DNA of 64,000 nt from an uncultured Clostridia bacterium (GTDB lineage: Bacteria; Bacillota; Clostridia; TANB77; CAG-465). The stretch is taken from contig CALXBV010000029.1 of the NCBI GenBank assembly GCA_944386635.1, forward strand, positions 8,896-72,895, written 5' to 3'. Of this stretch, positions 1 through 48,000 are shown in pieces; the first letter of the stretch is position 1, and each line of letters starts with the position of its first letter. Position numbers and translations under genes: made by a program. A model generated the notes under the pieces. The model saw only the letters and a program-made list of their open reading frames with translations, searched no databases and was not told where the DNA came from.

Positions 1-1632
1 GAGGGATTTATGTCTAGCTCACATTGTAACTATTGTGATGGCGCAAGATTAAAGAAGGAGTCCCTTGCTGTAACAATAGGAAGACTTAATATATACGAGT
101 TATGTTGCAAAAATATCGTATATATAAAAGATTATATAAATAAAGAATATGAAAAGATGGGTAAAAAAGATAAAACAATTGCAGAGCAAATTGTAAAAGA
201 ACTAAATTCTAGACTACAATTTTTGATTGATGTAGGACTTAGTTATCTTACACTATCTAGAAGTGCTGGTACCTTATCTGGGGGAGAATCACAAAGAATA
301 AGACTTGCAACTCAAATTGGATCAGGACTTACAGGAGTATTATATATATTAGATGAGCCAAGTATTGGATTGCATCAAAAAGATAACGAAAAACTATTAA
401 GTTCTTTAAAGAAAATGAGAGATTTAGGGAATACATTAATAGTTGTAGAGCATGATGAAGATACTATGAGACAATCGGATTTTATTGTAGATATAGGACC
501 TGGTGCTGGTGTTCATGGTGGAAATGTTGTATTTGCTGGAAAACCTGAAGATATATTGAATTGTGAAGAATCTATTACTGGAAAATATTTAAGCGGTAAA
601 TTAAAAATTCCTGTTCCTAAGACAAGAAGAAAAACAAAAATAGGATACTTGGAGATAAAAGGTGCAAGGGAACATAATTTAAAAAATATAAATGTTAAAA
701 TTCCTGTAGGAGTATTTAACTGTGTAACTGGTGTATCTGGCTCTGGTAAATCTACACTTGTTAACGAGATATTATATAAAACAATGGCACGTGATTTGAA
801 CAGAGCATATGAGAGACCTGGTAAATATGATAAAATAAAGGGGTTAAATTATTTTGACAAAGTAATAAATATAGATCAATCTCCAATTGGAAGAACGCCT
901 CGCTCTAATCCTGCAACTTACACTGGAATGTTTGATGCAATAAGAGAAATATTTGCAAATACTAATGAAGCAAAGCTTAGAGGATATTCTAAAGGTAGAT
1001 TCAGTTTTAATATTCCAGGAGGTAGGTGTGAAGCCTGTTCTGGTGATGGTATAATTAAAATTGAAATGAATTTTTTACCAGATGTATATGTTCCATGTGA
1101 AGTATGTAAAGGAAAAAGGTATTCAAGAGAAACATTGGAAGTAAAATATAAAGGAAAAAGTATAAGTGATGTATTAGATATGACAGTAGAAGAAGGATTG
1201 GAATTTTTTAAAAATATTCCTACTATTAAAAATAAGCTACAAACATTAATGGATGTAGGACTTGGATATATAAAAATAGGACAATCTTCTACAACACTTT
1301 CTGGTGGTGAAGCTCAAAGAATTAAACTTGCAACAGAGCTATCTAAAAGATCAACTGGTAAAACAATGTACATATTAGATGAGCCAACAACTGGACTTCA
1401 TATGGCTGATGTGCATAAATTAATAAATATATTGCAAAGACTTGTTGATGGTGGCAATACTTTAGTAGTGATTGAGCATAATTTAGATGTAATAAAAAGT
1501 GCAGATAATATAATAGACTTAGGGCCAGAAGGCGGAGATGAAGGTGGACAGATAGTAGCAACAGGTACACCAGAGCAAGTAGCTAAGGTAAATGAAAGTT
1601 ATACTGGAGAGTTCTTAAGAAAAATATTATAA
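1..1632 (+). CDS. uvrA: Excinuclease ABC subunit A, C-terminal ~540 aa (5' end lies outside the window)
   Basis: Frame open from nt 1. Shows UvrA ATPase module signatures [12 protein letters not shown] and [12 protein letters not shown], Walker [10 protein letters not shown], Cys pairs CEACSGDG and CEVCKG, and the typical UvrA C-terminus [19 protein letters not shown]. Confidence 0.93.
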
Positions 1633-6661: not shown

Positions 6662-7297
6662 ATGTTGGTGAATAAAATGAAAAAGTTATATAATTTATTT
6701 TATATTTTTATAATAACAAGTATTTGTGGATATATTATTGAATTTATTTGGACTTTGCTTACAAAGGGTGTATTCATTAATCATTCAGCAGTAGTAATTG
6801 GACCATTTAATTTTGCTTATGGTATTTGTGGAGTTGCTCTTACATTGTTATTGTATAAATTTAAAGATGAATCTTATTTAAAGATATTTTTATTTAGTTT
6901 TATTGGCGGTTCTATTTTAGAATATATTATGAGTTGGGGAATGGAGTTAGTTTTAGGCTTTACAGCATGGGATTATTCTAATAGATTTTTAAATATTAAC
7001 GGACGTATTTGTTTGTTATATTCTATATTTTGGGGAATTTTAGGAATTTTATGGATTAAAATTATATATCCACAATTTGAGAAAAATATTAATAAGATTA
7101 ATCAAAAAACATCTAAAATTGTTGCAATTTGTTTAAGTATATTTTTAGTCTTTGACATTCTTTTAACTATTAGTGCTGTAAATAGAGCTCGTGCTGCAGA
7201 TAGAGGTGTTCCGCCAAATAACCGATATGAAGTATTTTTAGATGCTAAATTTAATAGTAAATATTTAAAAAATATGTTTAACAATAATTGGAAGTGA
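6662..7297 (+). CDS. Polytopic integral membrane protein (true start could be ATG 6677)
   Basis: Five to six hydrophobic segments; no catalytic motif recognised. Confidence 0.5.
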   Translation: MLVNKMKKLYNLFYIFIITSICGYIIEFIWTLLTKGVFINHSAVVIGPFNFAYGICGVALTLLLYKFKDESYLKIFLFSFIGGSILEYIMSWGMELVLGFTAWDYSNRFLNINGRICLLYSIFWGILGILWIKIIYPQFEKNINKINQKTSKIVAICLSIFLVFDILLTISAVNRARAADRGVPPNNRYEVFLDAKFNSKYLKNMFNNNWK

Positions 7298-8421: not shown

Positions 8422-9744
8422 ATGAAAAATTTTAATTTATTTGAAGATAGCAATGATATGAAACAGGCTCCTCTTGCAAGTAGAATGAGACCATTAACAT
8501 TAGATGAAATTATTGGACAACAACATATTATTGGAAAAGACAAACTACTTTATAGAGCGATAAAAGCGGATAGATTAGGGTCTATTATATTATATGGACC
8601 ACCTGGAACAGGAAAGACTACTATTGCAAAGGTGATCTCAAATACAACAGATTCTTATTTTTGTAAATTAAATGCTACCAATGCTGGAATTAAAGATGTA
8701 GAAAAAGTTATAGAAGATGCTAAATTTAATTATGGAGCTTATAAAAAGAAAACCATATTATTTATAGATGAGATACATAGATTTAATAAAAATCAACAAG
8801 ATTATTTACTACCATTTGTTGAAGATGGAATTGTTACTTTGATTGGCGCAACTACCGAAAATCCATATTTTGAAGTAAATAATGCTTTACTTTCAAGATG
8901 TAGAATATTCGAATTAAAGCCTTTGGATAAAGATGATTTGATAAAGGTGATAGATAGGGCATTATCAGATAAGAAAAAAGGATTAGGAGCGGTAAACATA
9001 GCAATTGATAAAGAGGCAAAAGAGTTTTTAGCAGATACAGCAAATGGAGATGCTAGAAGCGTTTTAAATGCTTTAGAATTAGCATACCTTACAACAGCCC
9101 CTGAAAAAGATGGAAGTTTGCATATTACACTTCCTGTTGCAGAGGAGTGTATCCAAAAAAAAGTTATAAGATATGATGTTAATGGAGATAATCACTATGA
9201 TGCTATTTCGGCATTTATAGAATCAATGAAACATACTGAACCGGATGCGACTTTATATTATCTTGCTAGGATGCTAGTTGCTGGAGAAGATATAAAATAT
9301 ATTGCTAGGAGAATATGTGTATGTGCCTCAGAAGATGTAGGACTTGCAAATTCAAAAGCATTAGAGGTCGCAACTACTGCTATGCTTGCAGCTGAAAGAG
9401 TAGGAATGCCAGAAGCTGCGAAAATATTGGCACATGCAGCTTTATATGTATGTTGCTCTCCAAAATCTGATACTGTATATGGAATTTTAGATGCGATGAA
9501 AGAAAAAAAAAAAACAGGAAATATTCCGATTCCTTTATTTTTACAAGATTCTAGTTACAAAAATGCTTATAAGTTAGGTAGAGGAATAGGGCTAGATAAT
9601 ATACATGCATTTCCAAATCACTACTCTGGAAAGAACTGTATGCCTAAGGAATTAGAAAATAAGAGATATTTTAAATTATCAGGAACAGGAAATGAAAAGA
9701 AAATACAAGAATTCTTAGACTATTTAAGAAAAAATTTAAAATAA
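8422..9744 (+). CDS. rarA: Replication-associated recombination protein A (RarA/MgsA), AAA+ ATPase, paralogue 1
   Basis: ASRMRPLTLDEIIGQQHI, Walker A GPPGTGKTT, Walker B LFIDEIHRFNK, sensor GATTENP, and the C-terminal MgsA helical/tetramerisation region. Confidence 0.9.
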   Translation: MKNFNLFEDSNDMKQAPLASRMRPLTLDEIIGQQHIIGKDKLLYRAIKADRLGSIILYGPPGTGKTTIAKVISNTTDSYFCKLNATNAGIKDVEKVIEDAKFNYGAYKKKTILFIDEIHRFNKNQQDYLLPFVEDGIVTLIGATTENPYFEVNNALLSRCRIFELKPLDKDDLIKVIDRALSDKKKGLGAVNIAIDKEAKEFLADTANGDARSVLNALELAYLTTAPEKDGSLHITLPVAEECIQKKVIRYDVNGDNHYDAISAFIESMKHTEPDATLYYLARMLVAGEDIKYIARRICVCASEDVGLANSKALEVATTAMLAAERVGMPEAAKILAHAALYVCCSPKSDTVYGILDAMKEKKKTGNIPIPLFLQDSSYKNAYKLGRGIGLDNIHAFPNHYSGKNCMPKELENKRYFKLSGTGNEKKIQEFLDYLRKNLK

Positions 9745-9802
9745 ATAGAAACCAAAAGATATTATATAAAAGAATAATAGCAAAGTAGAAGGGAAGTTAA
9801 AA

Positions 9803-10692
9803 ATGGAAATAAAAAATAATAATAACTATAAAATAATAGTTAGAGGAGCTAAAGTACATAATTTAAAAAATATTGATATAGATATTCCTCTTGGAAAATT
9901 AGTAGCAATTGCAGGAGTATCTGGATCTGGTAAGTCTTCTTTAGCTTTAGGTACGTTATATGCAGAGGGTTTAAGAAGATATTTAGAAGCTTTATCTACA
10001 TATACAAGAAGAAGAATTACTCAGTCTGCAAGAGCAGATGTTGATATAATTAAGCATGTTCCGGCGGCTTTAGCACTTCATCAAAGGCCAGGAATTCCTA
10101 ATATAAGAAGTACTTTTAGTATTGTATATGAATTTTTAAATAGTTTAAGATTTCCAATTACTTGCCCAGATTGCGGAGGAACACGATATAATGTGTCAAC
10201 AGAAAAAATTATGTACCAAGTAGTTAATAATCAAAACTATTCAATAAAGTATATTAAGAGATTAACTATTAATGAGGCAGTTGATTTTTTTTAAAATGTG
10301 CCTAAAATAAGTTAGAAGTTTTAATTAATTTAGGATTAGGATATTTAACTTTAGGCGAAGATACACCAGCTTTGTCTGGAGGTGAAGCTCAAAGATTAAA
10401 ATTAGCATCAGAAATGGAAAAAATTCAAAATGATGCTGTATTTGTATTTGATGAGCCATCTATTGGTTTACATCCATTAGATGTTCAAGTTTTATTAAAA
10501 GTGTTTGATAATTTAGTATCTAAAGGAGCTACAGTAATTGTTATTGAACATGATTTGGATGTTATAAAAAATTCCGACTATTTAATTGATATGGGACCAG
10601 GTGGTGGAATTTTAGGAGGAAAGATAGTTGCAACTGGAACAAGAGAAGATATTAAAAACAATAAAAATAGTATTACTGGAAAATATTTATAA
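9803..10692 (+). pseudogene. Degraded UvrA-like mini-gene: N-terminal Walker A + zinc finger fragment (9803-10294) and signature/Walker B/H-loop fragment (10306-10692) in different frames
   Basis: Fragment a: [30 protein letters not shown] ... CPDCGG. Fragment b: [29 protein letters not shown] ... [12 protein letters not shown] ... IEHDLDVIK ... SITGKYL. Frame a ends at TAA just after a T8 run (10285-10292). Frame b opens only after a TAA at 10303, so a simple slip cannot join them. The full UvrB-binding/insertion domains and all of ATPase module II are absent. Confidence 0.65.
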
Positions 10693-10706: not shown

Positions 10707-12035
10707 ATGCATCAAGTATCTATATTTGAAAGCTCTACAAATGAGCCTTTAGCATCAAGAATGAGACCAACAAAATTAAGTGAGTTTGTTGGTCAAACTC
10801 ATTTGATAGGTAAAAACAAAATATTAAGAAAAATAATTGAAAGTGATAATATCCCTTCAATGATATTTTGGGGACCTCCAGGAGTTGGAAAAACAACATT
10901 AGCTCGTATTATTGCTAATGAGACGAAATCTGAATTTATTACTTTCTCAGCGGTGACTTCTGGAATTAAAGAAATAAAAAAGGTGATGGAAGAAGCAGAA
11001 AACAATAAAAGAATGGGAGTAAGGACTATTGTATTTGTAGATGAGATTCATCGCTTTAATAAAGCCCAACAAGATGCTTTTTTACCATTTGTTGAAAAGG
11101 GATCTATTGTTTTAATAGGAGCTACAACCGAAAATCCATCTTTTGAAATTAATAATGCGTTACTTTCTAGATGCAGAGTATTTGTTTTAAAGGAATTATC
11201 TAGTGAAGATATTTTAGTATTATTAAAAAGAGCTATTCATGATGAAAGAGGCTTTGGTAAAGAGAAGGTGGATATATCTGAAGAAGATTTGAATATAATA
11301 GCTAATTTTGCAAATGGTGATGCTAGATCAGCCCTTACAACTTTAGATATGATAATTACTAATTCAGATATAAGTGAAGATGGTATCATAAAAGTAACTA
11401 AAGATGCGATTGAGGAATGTTTAACTAAAAAGACATTACTATATGATAAAAATGGAGAAGAGCATTATAATATAATTTCTGCTCTTCATAAATCAATGAG
11501 AAATAGTGATCCAGATGCAGCGGTTTATTGGCTAGCTAGAATGCTAGAAGCTGGAGAAGATCCAATTTATATTGCAAGAAGAATTACAAGATTTGCTTCT
11601 GAAGATATAGGGCTTGCCGATACAAATGCTTTAAATGTCGCAATTAATGTATATCATGCTTGTCATTTTATTGGAATGCCAGAGTGTAATGTTCATCTGG
11701 CAGAGGCAGTAATTTATATGTCTTTAGCACCAAAATCTAATGCCTGTGATGTTGCGTATAGACTTGCTAGTTCTGATGCTAAAAAAATGCTTGCCGAACC
11801 TGTACCATTGGTTATTAGAAATGCTCCTACTAAATTAATGAAAGAGCTTAATTATGGAAAGGGATACCAATTTGCTCATGATAGTAAAGACAAACTAACA
11901 ACTATGGAATGTCTACCACCATCTTTAATTGGAAAAACTTATTATAATCCAGGAACGCAAGGTAACGAAGTTCGTTTTAAACAACGACTAGAGCAAATAA
12001 AAGAATGGAAAAAATCACATAAACAAAGCAATTAG
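10707..12035 (+). CDS. rarA: RarA/MgsA AAA+ ATPase, paralogue 2
   Basis: Strong RBS AAAGGAGGAAAA. ASRMRPTKLSEFVGQTHL, GPPGVGKTT, VFVDEIHRFNK; clear paralogue of the 8422 gene. Confidence 0.88.
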   Translation: MHQVSIFESSTNEPLASRMRPTKLSEFVGQTHLIGKNKILRKIIESDNIPSMIFWGPPGVGKTTLARIIANETKSEFITFSAVTSGIKEIKKVMEEAENNKRMGVRTIVFVDEIHRFNKAQQDAFLPFVEKGSIVLIGATTENPSFEINNALLSRCRVFVLKELSSEDILVLLKRAIHDERGFGKEKVDISEEDLNIIANFANGDARSALTTLDMIITNSDISEDGIIKVTKDAIEECLTKKTLLYDKNGEEHYNIISALHKSMRNSDPDAAVYWLARMLEAGEDPIYIARRITRFASEDIGLADTNALNVAINVYHACHFIGMPECNVHLAEAVIYMSLAPKSNACDVAYRLASSDAKKMLAEPVPLVIRNAPTKLMKELNYGKGYQFAHDSKDKLTTMECLPPSLIGKTYYNPGTQGNEVRFKQRLEQIKEWKKSHKQSN

Positions 12036-42418: not shown

Positions 42419-45049
42419 ATGAACAAAAACAGAATGAAGAAGATTTGTATAGTATCTGTCTTTATGGCTATATTGATGTATATAGCTGTTTTTAGAACTA
42501 ATGTTTTTGAAAATTTTTATAATATAGATGAACAAATAGGAAATTCTACTATTTATGATGAAAATCAAGTTGCATATGTAATTACTTTAAAATATATGTA
42601 TCAAAATGGCTCTTCAGCAGATAGTAAAGATGTTTATGTTTTTGATGAAGGTGAAAGCTTTAATATTGATATACCTCAAATAGATGGATACACTTCTAAT
42701 ATAAATTCTATAAGTGATGTAATAGATGATAACTTTTTAGATAGAATACAGCAATTAGATTATGTTGAAGTAAGTAAACAAGAGGGAACAAACGTATATA
42801 GGATATATTACACTATAACATATATTCCTGCACCATCTGAATATAAGGTGGTACATTATTTACAAAACTTAGATGGAACATATGATATTTCTTATCAAGA
42901 GACATTTAGTGATAATGTATTTATAGGAGACAATGTAACAACAGAAATTTTAGATTATGAAGGTTATACTTTTAATAGAGATAAGTCTATAATAGAATCA
43001 TCTGTTAATAGCGATGGAACAACTGAATTGTCATTATATTATGATAGAAATAATAATCATATTTATTTGGATTCGAACGGTGGAACATATTTTGAACCTA
43101 TATATGTAATGTATGGTCAAAATATTAGTTTGGATTCATATACACCTCAAAGAAGTGGATATGTCTTTTTAGGATGGGAATGCATTGATAGAGAAAGTGG
43201 AACAGTTATTTCTACTCCAACAAACATGCCAAATAATGATTTATATTTTAGAGCAAAATGGAATATAGCAAGTACAAGTTTTACTATTACGTATATGGTA
43301 GAAAATGCAGATAATGAAGCATATTCTAATGCTGGAATGTATACAGTAAGAAATATAGAAACAGAAACTCGAGTATCAGATATTAGAAATTTAGATACTT
43401 TAATTGAGCAAGGGTTTGAAAATATAAAGGGTAATGATAAAGATTATTTTGAATATAATGATACTTTAAGTTCACCAAATTTTGATGTTGAGGTATCAGG
43501 AGATTCTACAACTAATATAAATGTATATTATGATAGAAAAGAATATACTCTAAGATTTATGGCTGGTAGAGAACAGGTATCAACATCATTGTGGGGAGGT
43601 ACTACTTATACATATCAAGTAGCAACAGCGACTGGTGGAAGTGAGAGTGCATGTAGTTGGACAACTGTTAGTTCTGCTGCAACAATCACTAAAAATGGCG
43701 TAACGTATGAAAATGATGAATATACTATTACTGCAAAATATGAGCAGGATATATCAGATTTATGGCCTACAGTTTCTGATGTAGCAAATAAATCAAATGG
43801 AAATACAACATATTATTTTGTGAGTTGGGGAACAAGTGATGATTCAATTTATTGGGATACTCATACAAATCGTAATGTTTTAGGTCTTTACCCAATAATG
43901 TCACAGGAATTAATTATAGATGCAAATGATACAAGTGAAGAACATGTTCTTTATGGATATTGGAGTACAGGGCCAAGATATTTTAGATATCATTATATGT
44001 ATGAAGCCTTGGATCAACAAACTGATACAGGAATATCTTATACAGGTACTAGTGGAGTAAATAAGTATTATGAGGAAGATTCAACTACAATAATTAGATC
44101 AACAAATAATTCTGATGGACAAAATGGTCCAAACTTTTATGGATACGAATTAGTTGGAAAAACTTATACTTCAAATAATGGTGGTACAGAAAGTAATCCT
44201 ACAGATATATATTTTTATTATGATAGAAATGAATATGATATAACACTATTTAATGTTAATGGAGAATATGTTCTATCAGATATAAGTGAAGACTTAAATA
44301 GAGAAGGTATATATTTAGAAAATGGAAGACTATATGCAAAACATGGTGCAAATATTGCTTCTTTAGAAAATTTATATCAAGAATGGGAAAATGATTTATT
44401 TAACCCATTCGAATATCCTTTAGTTACATCTGAAACTAAAGACAGAGTGTTTGATGGATGGTATCTAGATATTTCTAATACAATACCAATGGATTGGAGT
44501 GATCAATCAAATACTGTATTAACATCAAATTTAACATTATATGCTAATTGGGAAATACCTTCATTTAATGTATCTTTTGATGTTAATGATGGTGTATGGA
44601 ACGAAACAGATAATTCTTATGTATATGAAGATGGAACATATAATTTAACTGTTTTATCTGGTGCAACGCTTACAGTTCCAAAAGCACCTACAAAAGAAGG
44701 ATATGATTTTATTGGATGGTATTATACAGACGATAACGGAGACTATATAGAGTATTTATTTAGCTCTTCTCAAATGGTATATGATGATATAGTGTTAGAG
44801 GCTAATTGGGATGCAAGAGAAGAAGGAAGTTATACTGTAAAATATGTACTTGCTGAATTTGATAGTAATGGAGATTTAATAACAGATTTGAATAGGTATC
44901 AAAACATTGAATATTTATTGCCAGATAAAGTTGTAAATAATATAAAATATGGAACTACTATTACAGAAACTGCAGAATATATTGAAAGAGACGGCGTAAA
45001 TATGCTTATAGTAGATGGATATGCTAAGCAAATTACTTTAACTATCTAG
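42419..45049 (+). CDS. Giant cell-wall adhesin, N-terminal 876-aa segment (signal peptide + Listeria-Bacteroides repeat domains); apparently the same gene as 45028-50508, split by a 1-nt frameshift
   Basis: Signal peptide MNKNRMKKICIVSVFMAILMYIAVF; at least three Flg_new-type repeats (GYVFLGWE...LYFRAKW, VFDGWY...LTLYANW, GYDFIGWYY...LEANW). Confidence 0.7.
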   Translation: MNKNRMKKICIVSVFMAILMYIAVFRTNVFENFYNIDEQIGNSTIYDENQVAYVITLKYMYQNGSSADSKDVYVFDEGESFNIDIPQIDGYTSNINSISDVIDDNFLDRIQQLDYVEVSKQEGTNVYRIYYTITYIPAPSEYKVVHYLQNLDGTYDISYQETFSDNVFIGDNVTTEILDYEGYTFNRDKSIIESSVNSDGTTELSLYYDRNNNHIYLDSNGGTYFEPIYVMYGQNISLDSYTPQRSGYVFLGWECIDRESGTVISTPTNMPNNDLYFRAKWNIASTSFTITYMVENADNEAYSNAGMYTVRNIETETRVSDIRNLDTLIEQGFENIKGNDKDYFEYNDTLSSPNFDVEVSGDSTTNINVYYDRKEYTLRFMAGREQVSTSLWGGTTYTYQVATATGGSESACSWTTVSSAATITKNGVTYENDEYTITAKYEQDISDLWPTVSDVANKSNGNTTYYFVSWGTSDDSIYWDTHTNRNVLGLYPIMSQELIIDANDTSEEHVLYGYWSTGPRYFRYHYMYEALDQQTDTGISYTGTSGVNKYYEEDSTTIIRSTNNSDGQNGPNFYGYELVGKTYTSNNGGTESNPTDIYFYYDRNEYDITLFNVNGEYVLSDISEDLNREGIYLENGRLYAKHGANIASLENLYQEWENDLFNPFEYPLVTSETKDRVFDGWYLDISNTIPMDWSDQSNTVLTSNLTLYANWEIPSFNVSFDVNDGVWNETDNSYVYEDGTYNLTVLSGATLTVPKAPTKEGYDFIGWYYTDDNGDYIEYLFSSSQMVYDDIVLEANWDAREEGSYTVKYVLAEFDSNGDLITDLNRYQNIEYLLPDKVVNNIKYGTTITETAEYIERDGVNMLIVDGYAKQITLTI

Positions 45050-48000
45050 AAGATCCAGAAGACAATGTTATTTGTTTCTTTTACTCACCACAAAGCAGAG
45101 TTTCTTATACAGTATATTATTTATTGGATACAGGAGTAAGATATAATAATGGAGATATACCTCCATCAAGTGAGTTTTTAGCTCCTTCAATAGTTAAAAA
45201 TGTTGCTTCATTGGATGATCTTGCGGTATTAGAAAACAGTATAGAAATAGATGGATATGAAGTAGATGCATTTGTTAAATCCACTGTTTTAGAGGCAAAC
45301 TCAGCAGTAGTATTACCTACTGATAATAGTGTATTCTTCTATTATTCACCAGTTCAAAGACAGGGAGAATATGAGATTAATTTCTACTTTATGAAAGATG
45401 ATGGAACTTATTCTGATACACCAGATTATACAAATTCTGGAACAGATTCTGTAGGTAAATATATTTATGCAACTGATTATTACAATTACTTACCTTCAAC
45501 TGATCCTTTATATATGGGACATGAATTTGATGCTGAAAAGACTGCAGCATTGATGGCTATAATAACATCTAATAATAAAGCGGTTTTAAATTTATATTTT
45601 AAAAATAGTATATATACTGTAAGTTATGATACACAAGGTGGAGATTGGACAGATACAAATACTACTTTTACACAAATCACACAGGAGATATATAGTACAG
45701 ATGTTACATACAATAGTCTTGCTCCAGAACCAACAGTACCTGTAAAAAATGAAAATAGATTTTTAGGTTGGTATGATAAAAAGACCAATACTCTTTATGA
45801 TTTTAATGCTAAGGTTACAGGAGATGTAGAATTATATGCAAAATGGATGGAGCAAAAAGATATAGTTGTAGAAAAAGTCTGGGAAGATAATGAAAATCAA
45901 GATGGAATAAGACCTGATAGTGTTGAAGTAAATTTAAAAAATAATGAAGATATAGTAAGGACATTTACTTTAAATAGTGATGACGGATGGATAGAATCAA
46001 TAGAAGATCTTGATGTATACGATAGTGATGGAAAAGAAATAAATTACACATTAGAAGAAGTAACAATAGAAGGATACACAGCAGAGTACGAATATAACAA
46101 CAATATGTATACAATCATAAATACACACGCGCCTGAAACTAAAGTTATTAATATATCTAAAGTATGGAATGATAATGAAAATCAAGATGGAATAAGACCT
46201 GATAGTATAGAGCTATCATTAAGGGTAAATGATGAGATATATGAAAATGTTACTTTAGATATAAATAATAATTGGAATCAAGATGTTGAAGTACCAGTAT
46301 ATAAAAATGGAAGTCTTGCAAACTATACTATAGATGAAACTTATATTCAAGGGTATACAATGAATTATCAATATAATGATAATAGCGTTGTAGTAACAAA
46401 TACACATATACCAGAAACTAAAACGATAGATATAGAAAAAATTTGGAAAGATAATAATAACCAAGATGGAAAAAGACCTGATAGTGTTAATATTAATATA
46501 AAAAACGGAGAAGAGATTGTAAGAAGTATTACATTAACAAATGAAAATTGGAAACAGCAAGTAACTAATTTACCAGTATATTCTCATGGTAATAAGATAG
46601 AATATACTGTTGAGGAAGTAAATGTAAATGGATATAGTGCAAGTTATACAAATGATGGAGATAATTTTGTAATAACAAATACACATATACCTGATACAAG
46701 AGATATTGTTATAAATAAAATATGGCAAGATAATGAAGATCAAGATGGCGTAAGACCAGATAGTATAAATGCAGTATTAAAAGCAGATGGAGTACTAGTT
46801 GAAAATATAGTATTAGATGAAAATAATGGATGGCAAGATGTTGTAGAAGACTTACCAGTATATAGAAATGGTGTTTTAATAGATTATACGATAGATGAAG
46901 AAAAAACACCTGAATATACTACAACTGTTGAAGAAACACAAGAAGGATTTAATATAATAAATACTCATAAAGTTAAAAAGACATCACTTAGTGTAGAAAA
47001 AGTCTGGGATGATAATAATAACCAAGATGGAAAAAGACCAAATAGTCTACAAGTATATCTACTTGCTGATGGTGAGATTGCTGATGAGGTAACTTTAAGT
47101 GATGAAAATGGATGGAGATATGATTGGACAAGTATAGATATGTATAATAGTGGTGAAGTTATAAATTATACTGTTCAAGAAGAGAATGTTTCAGATTATG
47201 AATCTTCTATGGAATATAATGATGAATTAAAGTTATGGACTTTGAAAAATATACATGAACCAGAAAAAAAGAATATAAGTGTTACTAAAGTATGGAACGA
47301 TAATGAGGATCAAGATGGAAAAAGACCAGATGAATTAACAATTACACTTACTCTTGATGGCCAAACAGTATCTCAGTTAGTTTTAAATGAGTCAAATGAA
47401 TGGACAGATACTTTTAAAAACTTAGATGTATATAAAGATGGTAATATTTTAAATTATCAAGTAACAGAAACTGAAGTCCCAGAATATACAACTGAAGTTC
47501 AAGTTACAGGAGATAATTATACATTTATAAATACTCATGAGCCAGAAAGAGCAGATAGAACTGTAAAGAAGGTATGGCGTGATGGAAGTAATAAAGAAAA
47601 TACAAGACCTGATAGTGTAAGTTTTAGATTACTTAAAAATGGTGAGTATTTTAGTGATGTTATTACTTTAACAGCAGATAATATGATAGATAATTTTGAT
47701 GAGTGGGAATATACATTTGGTGACCTATTTGTATATGAAAATGGTGAAAAGATAAATTATACCGTAGAAGAAATAAATGTTCCTGATGGATATGGTGTTA
47801 TATATAATCAAGAAAATCTAACTATGTATAATGCATATCCTCCAGAGTTAGAAGTTTCAGTAGAAAAAGTATGGAATGACGAAAATGATGCTGATGGTAT
47901 AAGACCTGAAAGTATACATGTTCAACTTTATGCAGATGGAGAGCCTTATGAGATTGACGGACAAAATATTGGACTTGTTGAATTAAATGAGTCAAATGGA

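What the first reader, a model, noticed from the sequence alone, without database searches (positions are those of the whole stretch)
9803..10692. UvrA-derived mini ABC-ATPase: all DNA-recognition inserts deleted but ATPase motifs intact
The two fragments together would form an about 280-aa protein. It would comprise the Walker A (GVSGSGKSS), the Cys pair CPDCGG, the ABC signature LSGGEAQR, Walker [13 protein letters not shown], the H-loop IEHDLD, and the module-I end SITGKYL. That is UvrA ATPase module I with the UvrB-binding and insertion domains and the whole of module II removed. The surviving segments have no internal stops. The frames are separated by a T8 homopolymer (10285-10292) and stops at 10292 and 10303, so the locus is disrupted as sequenced. 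Either a recently inactivated minimal UvrA-like ATPase, or intact in sister strains, is worth testing; such minimal UvrA derivatives are not characterised.
Basis: partly seen in the sequence, partly recalled or inferred. Interest (0 to 1): 0.55.

Follow-up and report, generated by a model that had tools for sequence, protein, structure and literature searches.

The report
Dead remnant of a second UvrA gene
This is the broken leftover of a second, UvrB-independent UvrA-type DNA-repair gene that lost about 525 internal codons and then gained a stop codon and a frameshift. It is an ordinary pseudogene, not a working miniature ATPase.

Summary
The domain assignment is wrong. Residues 1-117 are the N-terminal Walker A part of ABC module I. 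Everything from CPDCGG onward (signature, Walker B, H-loop, SITGKYL) is the C-terminal part of module II.

The closest full-length relative is an 818-aa UvrA paralogue that lacks the UvrB-binding domain, from an uncultured Clostridia genome. It is 77% identical to the N part and 79% to the C part. Against it, the window copy lacks about 525 residues.

Two further lesions break the frame:
- an in-frame TAA at 10292-10294, where the relative has Lys;
- a net -1 frameshift at about 10309-10311.

No slip in the T8 run repairs the gene. The 890-bp locus is 100% identical, lesions included, in two independent metagenome assemblies of the same species, so it is not a sequencing error. Sister species carry no intact copy next to rarA1 or rarA2. 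A canonical uvrA lies 8 kb upstream.

The retained segments show no excess divergence, so inactivation is recent. Intact single-module derivatives of the same family exist elsewhere, but they have different junctions. Verdict: a pseudogene of low interest.

The parts
9787..9796 (+). Shine-Dalgarno-like AGAAGGGAAG, ending 6 nt upstream of the ATG (AGGGA core 8 nt upstream)
   Evidence: Read from the sequence. Its function is inferred only.
9803..10153 (+). N-terminal part of ABC module I (aa 1-117), including Walker [10 protein letters not shown] at 9914-9940 and the ALALHQRP / RSTF region
   Evidence: Matches NCBIfam UvrA profile positions 3-111. It is 77% identical to residues 4-110 of the 818-aa relative in L003 and only 28% identical to that relative's module II N part.
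10151..10156 (+). In-frame deletion junction (…LNSLRF | PITC…), where about 525 codons (about 1.6 kb) are missing
   Evidence: Alignment with three full-length relatives. The missing stretch corresponds to L003 residues about 112-636. The exact breakpoint cannot be resolved.
10154..10291 (+). Module II signature-domain segment: the second CxxC of zinc module 3 (CPDC, 10163-10174) through …INEAVDFF
   Evidence: Aligns to L003 residues 638-683 and to UvrA profile positions from 762 onward.
10285..10294 (+). T8 run (10285-10292) ending in the in-frame nonsense codon TAA (10292-10294)
   Evidence: The TAA lies where L003 has AAA (Lys), so a single A/G-to-T change explains it. The same sequence is present in L028 and L029.
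10295..10311 (+). NVPKI codons followed by the frameshift site (net -1 nt at about 10309-10311; by alignment a 1-nt or a 7-nt deletion)
   Evidence: Three-frame translation and codon alignment with L003.
10312..10692 (+). C-terminal part of ABC module II: LGLGYL, signature LSGGEAQR (10372-10395), Walker B FVFDE (10441-10455), H-loop His (10549-10551), C-terminal SITGKYL and stop TAA (10690-10692)
   Evidence: Matches UvrA profile positions 809-937 of 943 with E = 4e-49. It is 79% identical to L003 691-818 and 47% identical to L003 357-480.

Best explanation
The locus is a pseudogene: the relic of a second uvrA-type gene. Its parent belonged to the UvrA paralogues that lack the UvrB-binding domain (class II-type, 818-870 aa in relatives).

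Three lesions are shown:
1. An in-frame internal deletion of about 525 codons. It joined the N-terminal Walker A part of module I to the C-terminal part of module II (half of zinc module 3, signature, Walker B, H-loop). The insertion (DNA-binding) domain, zinc modules 1 and 2 and half of zinc module 3 were lost.
2. A nonsense codon, TAA at 10292-10294.
3. A net -1 frameshift about 17 nt further on.

As sequenced, it cannot make one polypeptide. The genome's nucleotide excision repair rests on the canonical uvrA 8 kb upstream.

Inferred, not shown:
- Inactivation is evolutionarily recent, because the retained segments are as well conserved as those of intact relatives.
- The DNA is probably still transcribed passively between rarA1 and rarA2.
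- It has no function of its own.
For: - Homology and domain mapping.
- The parent family lacks the UvrB-binding domain. The L003 818-aa protein matches canonical UvrA over positions 1-115 and then 136-818 against 250-937. PF17755 is present, and solved UvrA structures align the same way.
- Two separate frame-breaking lesions, and no single T8 slip restores the frame.
- The 890-bp locus is 100% identical in two independent metagenome contigs, L028 and L029. These are 98.3% and 99.9% identical to the window overall. The lesions are therefore real and fixed in the species.
- All 19 complete relatives from the metagenome scan are full length, with two Walker A motifs. So two modules are the functional norm.
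- Sister species with 85% nucleotide identity in rarA1 or rarA2 have no uvrA-like DNA next to either gene.
- A canonical UvrA C-terminal part lies at 10-1632 and scores 960 bits.
- TAA is used as a normal stop by the neighbouring genes.
Against: - The retained segments show no relaxed evolution. The window has 23 lineage-specific residue changes against 21-23 in the intact L003 protein (p = 0.8-1.0).
- At family sites that are at least 90% conserved, the window departs at 8 of 148, while intact proteins depart at 0-14.
- All ATPase motifs are intact, the deletion is in frame, and a ribosome-binding-like site and operon position are kept.
- These points fit a very recent death. They also fit a period of selection on the shortened protein.
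- No expression data are available.
Confidence: 0.88

Rival explanations
1. A functional single-module mini-UvrA that died only recently. On this view the internal deletion happened long ago. Its product was one chimeric ABC domain that would have to pair with itself to form ATP sites. It was kept by selection, and the stop and frameshift are recent.
For: - Retained segments show no excess divergence and all motifs are intact.
- Window-specific changes cluster in the 12 residues before the junction: 4 of 8 departures at conserved sites (p about 0.002) and 5 of 16 by the other count (p about 0.0004). This would fit time having passed after the deletion while the rest stayed constrained.
- Intact single-module derivatives of the same family exist elsewhere. 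P0014 and P0016 (323-325 aa) are complete genes inside their contigs. P0033 (496 aa) occurs in an NCBI metagenome-assembled genome and two Logan assemblies.
Against: - No intact copy with this junction was found anywhere.
- The window is closest to a full-length protein (73% identity over 285 shared alignment columns) and more distant from the short forms (58-59% BLASTP local identity), and the junctions differ. So the deletion here is an independent event.
- The junction-adjacent changes (GT.T to SI.Y) need several nucleotide changes per codon. They may be part of a complex deletion event rather than drift.
- The strongly conserved GT.T motif is lost.
- The AlphaFold2 model of the analogue P0016 was uninformative (mean pLDDT 53).
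Confidence: 0.2
2. The gene is intact and the disruption is a homopolymer sequencing or assembly error at the T8/A4 tract.
For: Both lesions lie in A/T runs. Elsewhere the window has an odd A12 run that the other assemblies lack.
Against: - Two independent corrections would be needed, and one of them is a substitution, not an indel.
- The identical sequence is present in two other assemblies from different samples. One (L028) carries a SPAdes-style contig name with about 2.9x coverage, and the assembler of the other is not known.
Confidence: 0.02
3. Programmed recoding (slippage on T8 plus read-through), or two separately translated fragments that assemble into a split ATPase.
For: A T8A4 tract is slippery in principle. 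Gene callers listed a 106-aa ORF starting at TTG 10372.
Against: - A +1 or a -1 slip at T8 both hit stops, at 10303-10305 and 10308-10310.
- Restoring the protein needs read-through of a TAA plus a second shift.
- The TTG at 10372 is the Leu of the LSGGE signature itself and has no ribosome-binding site. A split there would cut the signature helix.
- Neither device is seen in any relative.
Confidence: 0.03

Closest known systems
Class II UvrA paralogues (UvrA lacking the UvrB-binding domain, such as Deinococcus radiodurans UvrA2, PDB 2VF7, and Ecm16, PDB 7SH1; classes as summarised in PMC9328131)
   Same: - This is the parent family by descent. The nearest full-length relative (L003, 818 aa) is 77-79% identical to the retained parts.
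- Like class II proteins, that relative goes from module I residue about 115 straight to the second half of zinc module 1, with no UvrB-binding domain.
- Both 2VF7 and 7SH1 are significant sequence matches.
   Different: - The window copy has one Walker A and one signature instead of two of each.
- It has no insertion (DNA-binding) domain and only half a zinc module, and its frame is broken.
- The relatives keep a zinc module 1-like CPNGH…CPEC, whereas PMC9328131 describes class IIa as lacking the first zinc finger. The subclass was therefore not assigned.
Canonical (class I) UvrA, NCBIfam TIGR00630 / NF001503, e.g. PDB 2R6F
   Same: Same superfamily and the same motifs. The best profile match of both fragments is to UvrA.
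   Different: - The fusion scores 325-329 bits against curated cut-offs of 730 and 1147 bits.
- About 650 profile positions are missing.
- The genome has its own canonical uvrA at 10-1632.
Intact single-module derivatives of the same family in metagenomes (P0014/P0016 at 323-325 aa, P0002/P0050 at 365 aa, P0003-type at 467-477 aa, P0022/P0033-type at 478-496 aa)
   Same: Same architecture principle: the N part of module I is joined in register to the C part of module II. The C termini are 65-74% identical to module II and 39-46% identical to module I.
   Different: - The junctions differ (CPxC|GSRY, CxxCxGTG, LGLGYL) and lie at short intragenic direct repeats. One example is a 16-of-17-nt repeat spaced 1075 nt apart in L026.
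- These forms have open frames.
- By BLASTP local alignment of the conceptual fusion they are only 58-59% (P0014/P0016) or 49-56% (P0002, P0050, P0111) identical over nearly its full length, and 52-61% over about 60% of it (the 467-503-aa forms).
- Their function is unknown, and some may be assembly chimeras.
Homodimerising single ABC ATPase domains (the general ABC nucleotide-binding domain, PF00005)
   Same: The conceptual product carries Walker A, signature, Walker B, D-loop and H-loop in the canonical order. If it were made, it would need to pair head to tail to form ATP sites. This is established ABC mechanism; its application here is inference.
   Different: No product can be made. The Pfam ABC_tran scores of the fragments are below the gathering threshold.

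Membership tests
Canonical UvrA (TIGR00630 / NF001503) | Whole-protein score at or above the curated cut-off | tested here: not met
   The conceptual fusion scores 328.9 and 325.4 bits against cut-offs of 729.8 and 1147.
Canonical UvrA (TIGR00630 / NF001503) | Two tandem ABC modules (two Walker A motifs, two signatures) | tested here: not met
   There is one Walker A (9914-9940) and one signature (10372-10395).
Canonical UvrA (TIGR00630 / NF001503) | UvrB-binding domain and insertion (DNA-binding) domain (PF17755) | tested here: not met
   Pfam found neither domain in the fragments. The alignment shows both regions deleted.
Class II (UvrB-binding-domain-less) UvrA paralogues | Descent from proteins that lack the UvrB-binding domain but keep two modules and the insertion domain | tested here: met
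   The retained parts are 77-79% identical to the L003 818-aa protein. That protein skips UvrA profile positions about 112-249 and has PF17755.
Class II (UvrB-binding-domain-less) UvrA paralogues | Intact two-module open reading frame | tested here: not met
   About 525 codons are deleted, and a stop and a frameshift follow.
Class II (UvrB-binding-domain-less) UvrA paralogues | ATP-dependent binding of damaged or drug-bound DNA | not testable with these tools
   This is a biochemical property (PMC9328131 for Ecm16).
Pseudogene | Clear homology to a functional family, plus disabling lesions that are reproducible in independent sequence data | tested here: met
   E = 1e-37 and 4e-49 to UvrA. There are three lesions. 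The locus is identical in L028 and L029.
Pseudogene | Relaxed constraint (excess substitutions) in the retained sequence | tested here: not met
   The relative-rate test gives 23 versus 21-23 changes. The window departs at 8 of 148 conserved sites, against 0-14 in intact proteins. This implies recent inactivation.
Functional single-module mini-UvrA (hypothetical family) | Intact orthologues sharing this junction in related genomes | tested here: not met
   None was found in the protein collection, the genome collection or the metagenome collection. The loci of sister species lack the gene.

The most novel reading that the evidence does not exclude
The UvrB-domain-less UvrA family repeatedly collapses from two ABC modules to one. 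The collapse would occur by in-register deletion between the short direct repeats left by its internal duplication. Some of these single-module chimeras (module I N part plus module II C part) would be kept as working, self-pairing ATPases. The window copy would be one such derivative that stayed under selection until a recent stop and frameshift.
Probability: 0.15. Interest if true: 0.5.

Novelty: new member of a known kind. Interest (0 to 1): 0.15.

Why it matters
For this genome it matters little. The locus should be annotated as a uvrA-paralogue pseudogene, not as two hypothetical ORFs of 163 and 106 aa as gene callers did. Nucleotide excision repair is covered by the canonical uvrA.

The wider point is modest. 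The internal duplication of UvrA-type genes gives them built-in short direct repeats. In-frame collapse to one ABC module seems to recur at these repeats. If any of those products work, they would be natural minimal versions of a damage sensor whose two ATP sites are still being dissected.

Tried and rejected
- **Exact look-up of RarA2:** not on record.
- **Genome-collection scan with the conceptual fusion:** the species itself is not among the representative genomes. Most hits were module II of unrelated UvrA genes. Only L003 was useful.
- **Search of 1.84 billion representative proteins with P0016:** swamped by 1600-2300-aa duplicated UvrA proteins, so it gave no length census of short forms.
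- **Synteny in sister species through RarA2 and RarA1:** homology stops at the ends of the rarA genes and no uvrA-like DNA is present. The ancestral state of the locus could not be reconstructed.
- **rarA next to the uvrA paralogue:** not seen in 34 other loci, so no conserved operon.
- **Structure prediction:** The analogue P0016 with a 22-sequence alignment gave mean pLDDT 52.9, too low for a fold search.
- **Microhomology at the window's junction:** not recoverable from a relative at 73-79% residue identity.
- **Mosaic test for assembly chimeras among the short forms:** inconclusive, because the N-terminal 105 residues are nearly invariant across the family.
- **Promoter and terminator scan:** no more sites than in shuffled sequence.
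- **Class IIa versus IIb assignment:** no open-access source with the definitions was found.

Full report
**Observation**

The window has 27% G+C. On the + strand an ORF runs from ATG 9803 to TAA 10292-10294 (163 aa). A second frame is open from 10306, just after a TAA at 10303-10305, to TAA 10690-10692. The T8 run is at 10285-10292.

Both fragments match the NCBIfam UvrA profile NF001503 far beyond chance, at E = 1e-37 and 4e-49. The sequence-level observation therefore holds.

**Domain assignment**

Fragment A residues 8-116 match UvrA profile positions 3-111. From CPDCGG onward the conceptual fusion matches positions 762-937 of 943, which is the end of module II.

The genome scan returned one useful relative, L003. 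It is an 818-aa protein from an uncultured low-GC Clostridia genome.
- The window's N part is 77% identical to L003 residues 4-110, and only 28% identical to the N part of its module II.
- The window's C part is 79% identical to L003 residues 691-818, and only 47% identical to the equivalent stretch of module I.
- A four-way alignment shows the window lacking L003 residues about 112-636, between …LNSLRF and PITCPDC….

The relic is therefore the N part of module I fused in frame to the C part of module II. The CPDC pair is the second half of the third zinc module.

**Parent family**

The L003 protein and 19 other complete relatives are 818-870 aa. They match canonical UvrA in two blocks that skip the UvrB-binding domain, and they keep the insertion domain PF17755. 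This is the architecture of class II UvrA paralogues such as Deinococcus UvrA2 and Ecm16. Their roles are independent of UvrB and only partly understood (PMC9328131).

The window also holds the C-terminal 540 residues of a canonical UvrA at 10-1632, scoring 960 bits. The relic therefore comes from a second paralogue, and the main repair gene is present.

**Small lesions**

Codon alignment with L003 shows two small lesions.
- TAA 10292-10294 sits where the relative has AAA (Lys). One substitution explains it, and that substitution also lengthens T7 to T8.
- About 17 nt further on, the reading frame shifts by a net -1 nt. By alignment this is a 1-nt or a 7-nt deletion near 10309-10311.

Adding or removing one T in the T8 run leads to stops at 10303-10305 or 10308-10310. 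No single slip restores the protein. TAA is the ordinary stop of the neighbouring genes.

**The lesions are not sequencing errors**

An exact look-up of the 163-aa product found two metagenome contigs from other samples, L028 and L029. Both have the same gene order: DUF308, rarA1, a 163-aa ORF, a 106-aa ORF, rarA2. They are 98.3% and 99.9% identical to the window overall, and 100% identical over 9803-10692. The three lesions are real and fixed in this species.

**Related genomes**

- RarA2 relatives (93% and 87% residue identity, 85% and 80% nucleotide identity) and RarA1 relatives (88-90% residue identity, 85% nucleotide identity) sit at separate loci. Homology to the window stops at the gene ends, and no uvrA-like DNA is nearby.
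- No rarA gene lies next to the paralogue in 34 other loci.
- A metagenome scan seeded with fragment A returned 28 loci. Every complete gene among them was full length, apart from one with a single frameshift.
- No intact orthologue with this junction was found.

**Age of the lesions**

The retained parts are not decaying. A relative-rate test with two outgroups gives 23 window-specific changes against 21-23 L003-specific changes in 285 columns (p = 0.8-1.0). At 148 family sites that are at least 90% conserved, the window departs 8 times, while intact proteins depart 0-14 times. Loss of constraint is therefore recent relative to the split from the L003 lineage.

The departures cluster just before the junction: 4 of 8, p about 0.002. 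This could mean that time passed after the deletion while the rest of the gene stayed constrained, which would fit a once-functional mini-protein. It could equally be a scar of a complex deletion event. GT.T to SI.Y needs several changes per codon, which favours the scar. I cannot separate the two readings. I give about 0.2 to the reading that the shortened protein was once functional.

**Short forms elsewhere**

The protein search returned many intact single-module derivatives of the same family. Their junctions lie at conserved motifs:

| Junction | Length |
|---|---|
| CPxC\|GSRY | 323-325 aa and 467-477 aa |
| CxxCxGTG | 365 aa |
| LGLGYL | 478-496 aa |

- P0014 and P0016 are complete genes inside their contigs.
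- P0022 lies in a 66-kb contig.
- P0033 is found in an NCBI metagenome-assembled genome and in two Logan assemblies.
- Full-length genes carry short direct repeats exactly at these motifs, for example a 16-of-17-nt repeat spaced 1075 nt apart in L026. Deletion through short homology is therefore a plausible cause.
- P0003 has a C terminus 100% identical to a fragment of a full-length protein. That points to a very recent deletion or an assembly chimera.

By BLASTP local alignment of the conceptual fusion, these forms are 49-59% identical over nearly its full length (the 302-365-aa forms) or 52-61% over about 60% of it (the 467-503-aa forms). By the same kind of alignment the full-length L003 protein is 77-79% identical to the retained parts. 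The junctions also differ, so the window's deletion is an independent event. They do not rescue the locus. They do leave open a modest broader story.

**Mechanism and verdict**

- Shown: homology, the chimeric origin, three lesions, and their fixation in the species.
- Inferred: no product beyond a 163-aa Walker A fragment, passive co-transcription between rarA1 and rarA2 (no terminator was found), and no function.
- If the frame were open, the product would be one ABC domain. It would have to pair head to tail to form ATP sites, and it would lack the DNA-contacting insertion domain and most zinc modules. Damage sensing would not be expected. This follows from established ABC and UvrA structural knowledge applied by inference.

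The verdict is a recently inactivated, internally deleted pseudogene of a class II-type uvrA paralogue, with confidence 0.88. It is of low interest.

Noticed in passing
window 10-1632 (+): The C-terminal 540 aa of a canonical UvrA (NF001503 positions 404-941, 960 bits), cut by the window start. The genome keeps its class I uvrA 8 kb upstream of the relic.
   Followed up: partly
window 8422-9744 and 10707-12035 (+): Two diverged RarA/MgsA paralogues (44% identical) flank the relic. In sister species each sits at a separate locus, so this tandem arrangement is specific to the species.
   Followed up: partly
window 9501-9514: Inside rarA1 the window has an A12 run (…KEKKKT…). Both other assemblies read GATGTAGAAAAAA (…KDVEKT…) at that place. 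The four clustered differences may be a polishing artefact in the window sequence.
   Followed up: partly
window 6728-7235 versus L028: The 212-aa membrane ORF is about 12% diverged from L028, while everything downstream of about 7235 is more than 99.5% identical. This looks like a recombination boundary between strains.
   Followed up: no
P0022/L027 5001-6446; P0033/L064 3001-4491; P0014/L001 2213-3190; P0016/L002 667-1638: Intact single-module derivatives of the same UvrA paralogue family. Module I is joined to module II in register at conserved motifs that are short direct DNA repeats in full-length genes (e.g. L026 4847-4863 and 5922-5938). They are either recurrent real deletions or, in part, assembly chimeras.
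   Followed up: partly
L026 3980-6458: A full-length paralogue is split into 321-aa and 485-aa ORFs by one frameshift, in a contig whose name (contig_1208) may indicate a long-read assembly. Many of the 485-519-aa proteins in the collection are such fragments, or are short representatives of clusters that also hold 829-aa members (P0056 and P0270).
   Followed up: partly
window 42419-52577 (+): A surface-adhesin and pilus cluster: an 876-aa protein with Listeria-Bacteroides repeats, a 1794-aa protein with 12 Cna_B repeats plus MucBP and DUF7601, and a 398-aa FctA/DUF7601 pilin-like protein.
   Followed up: no
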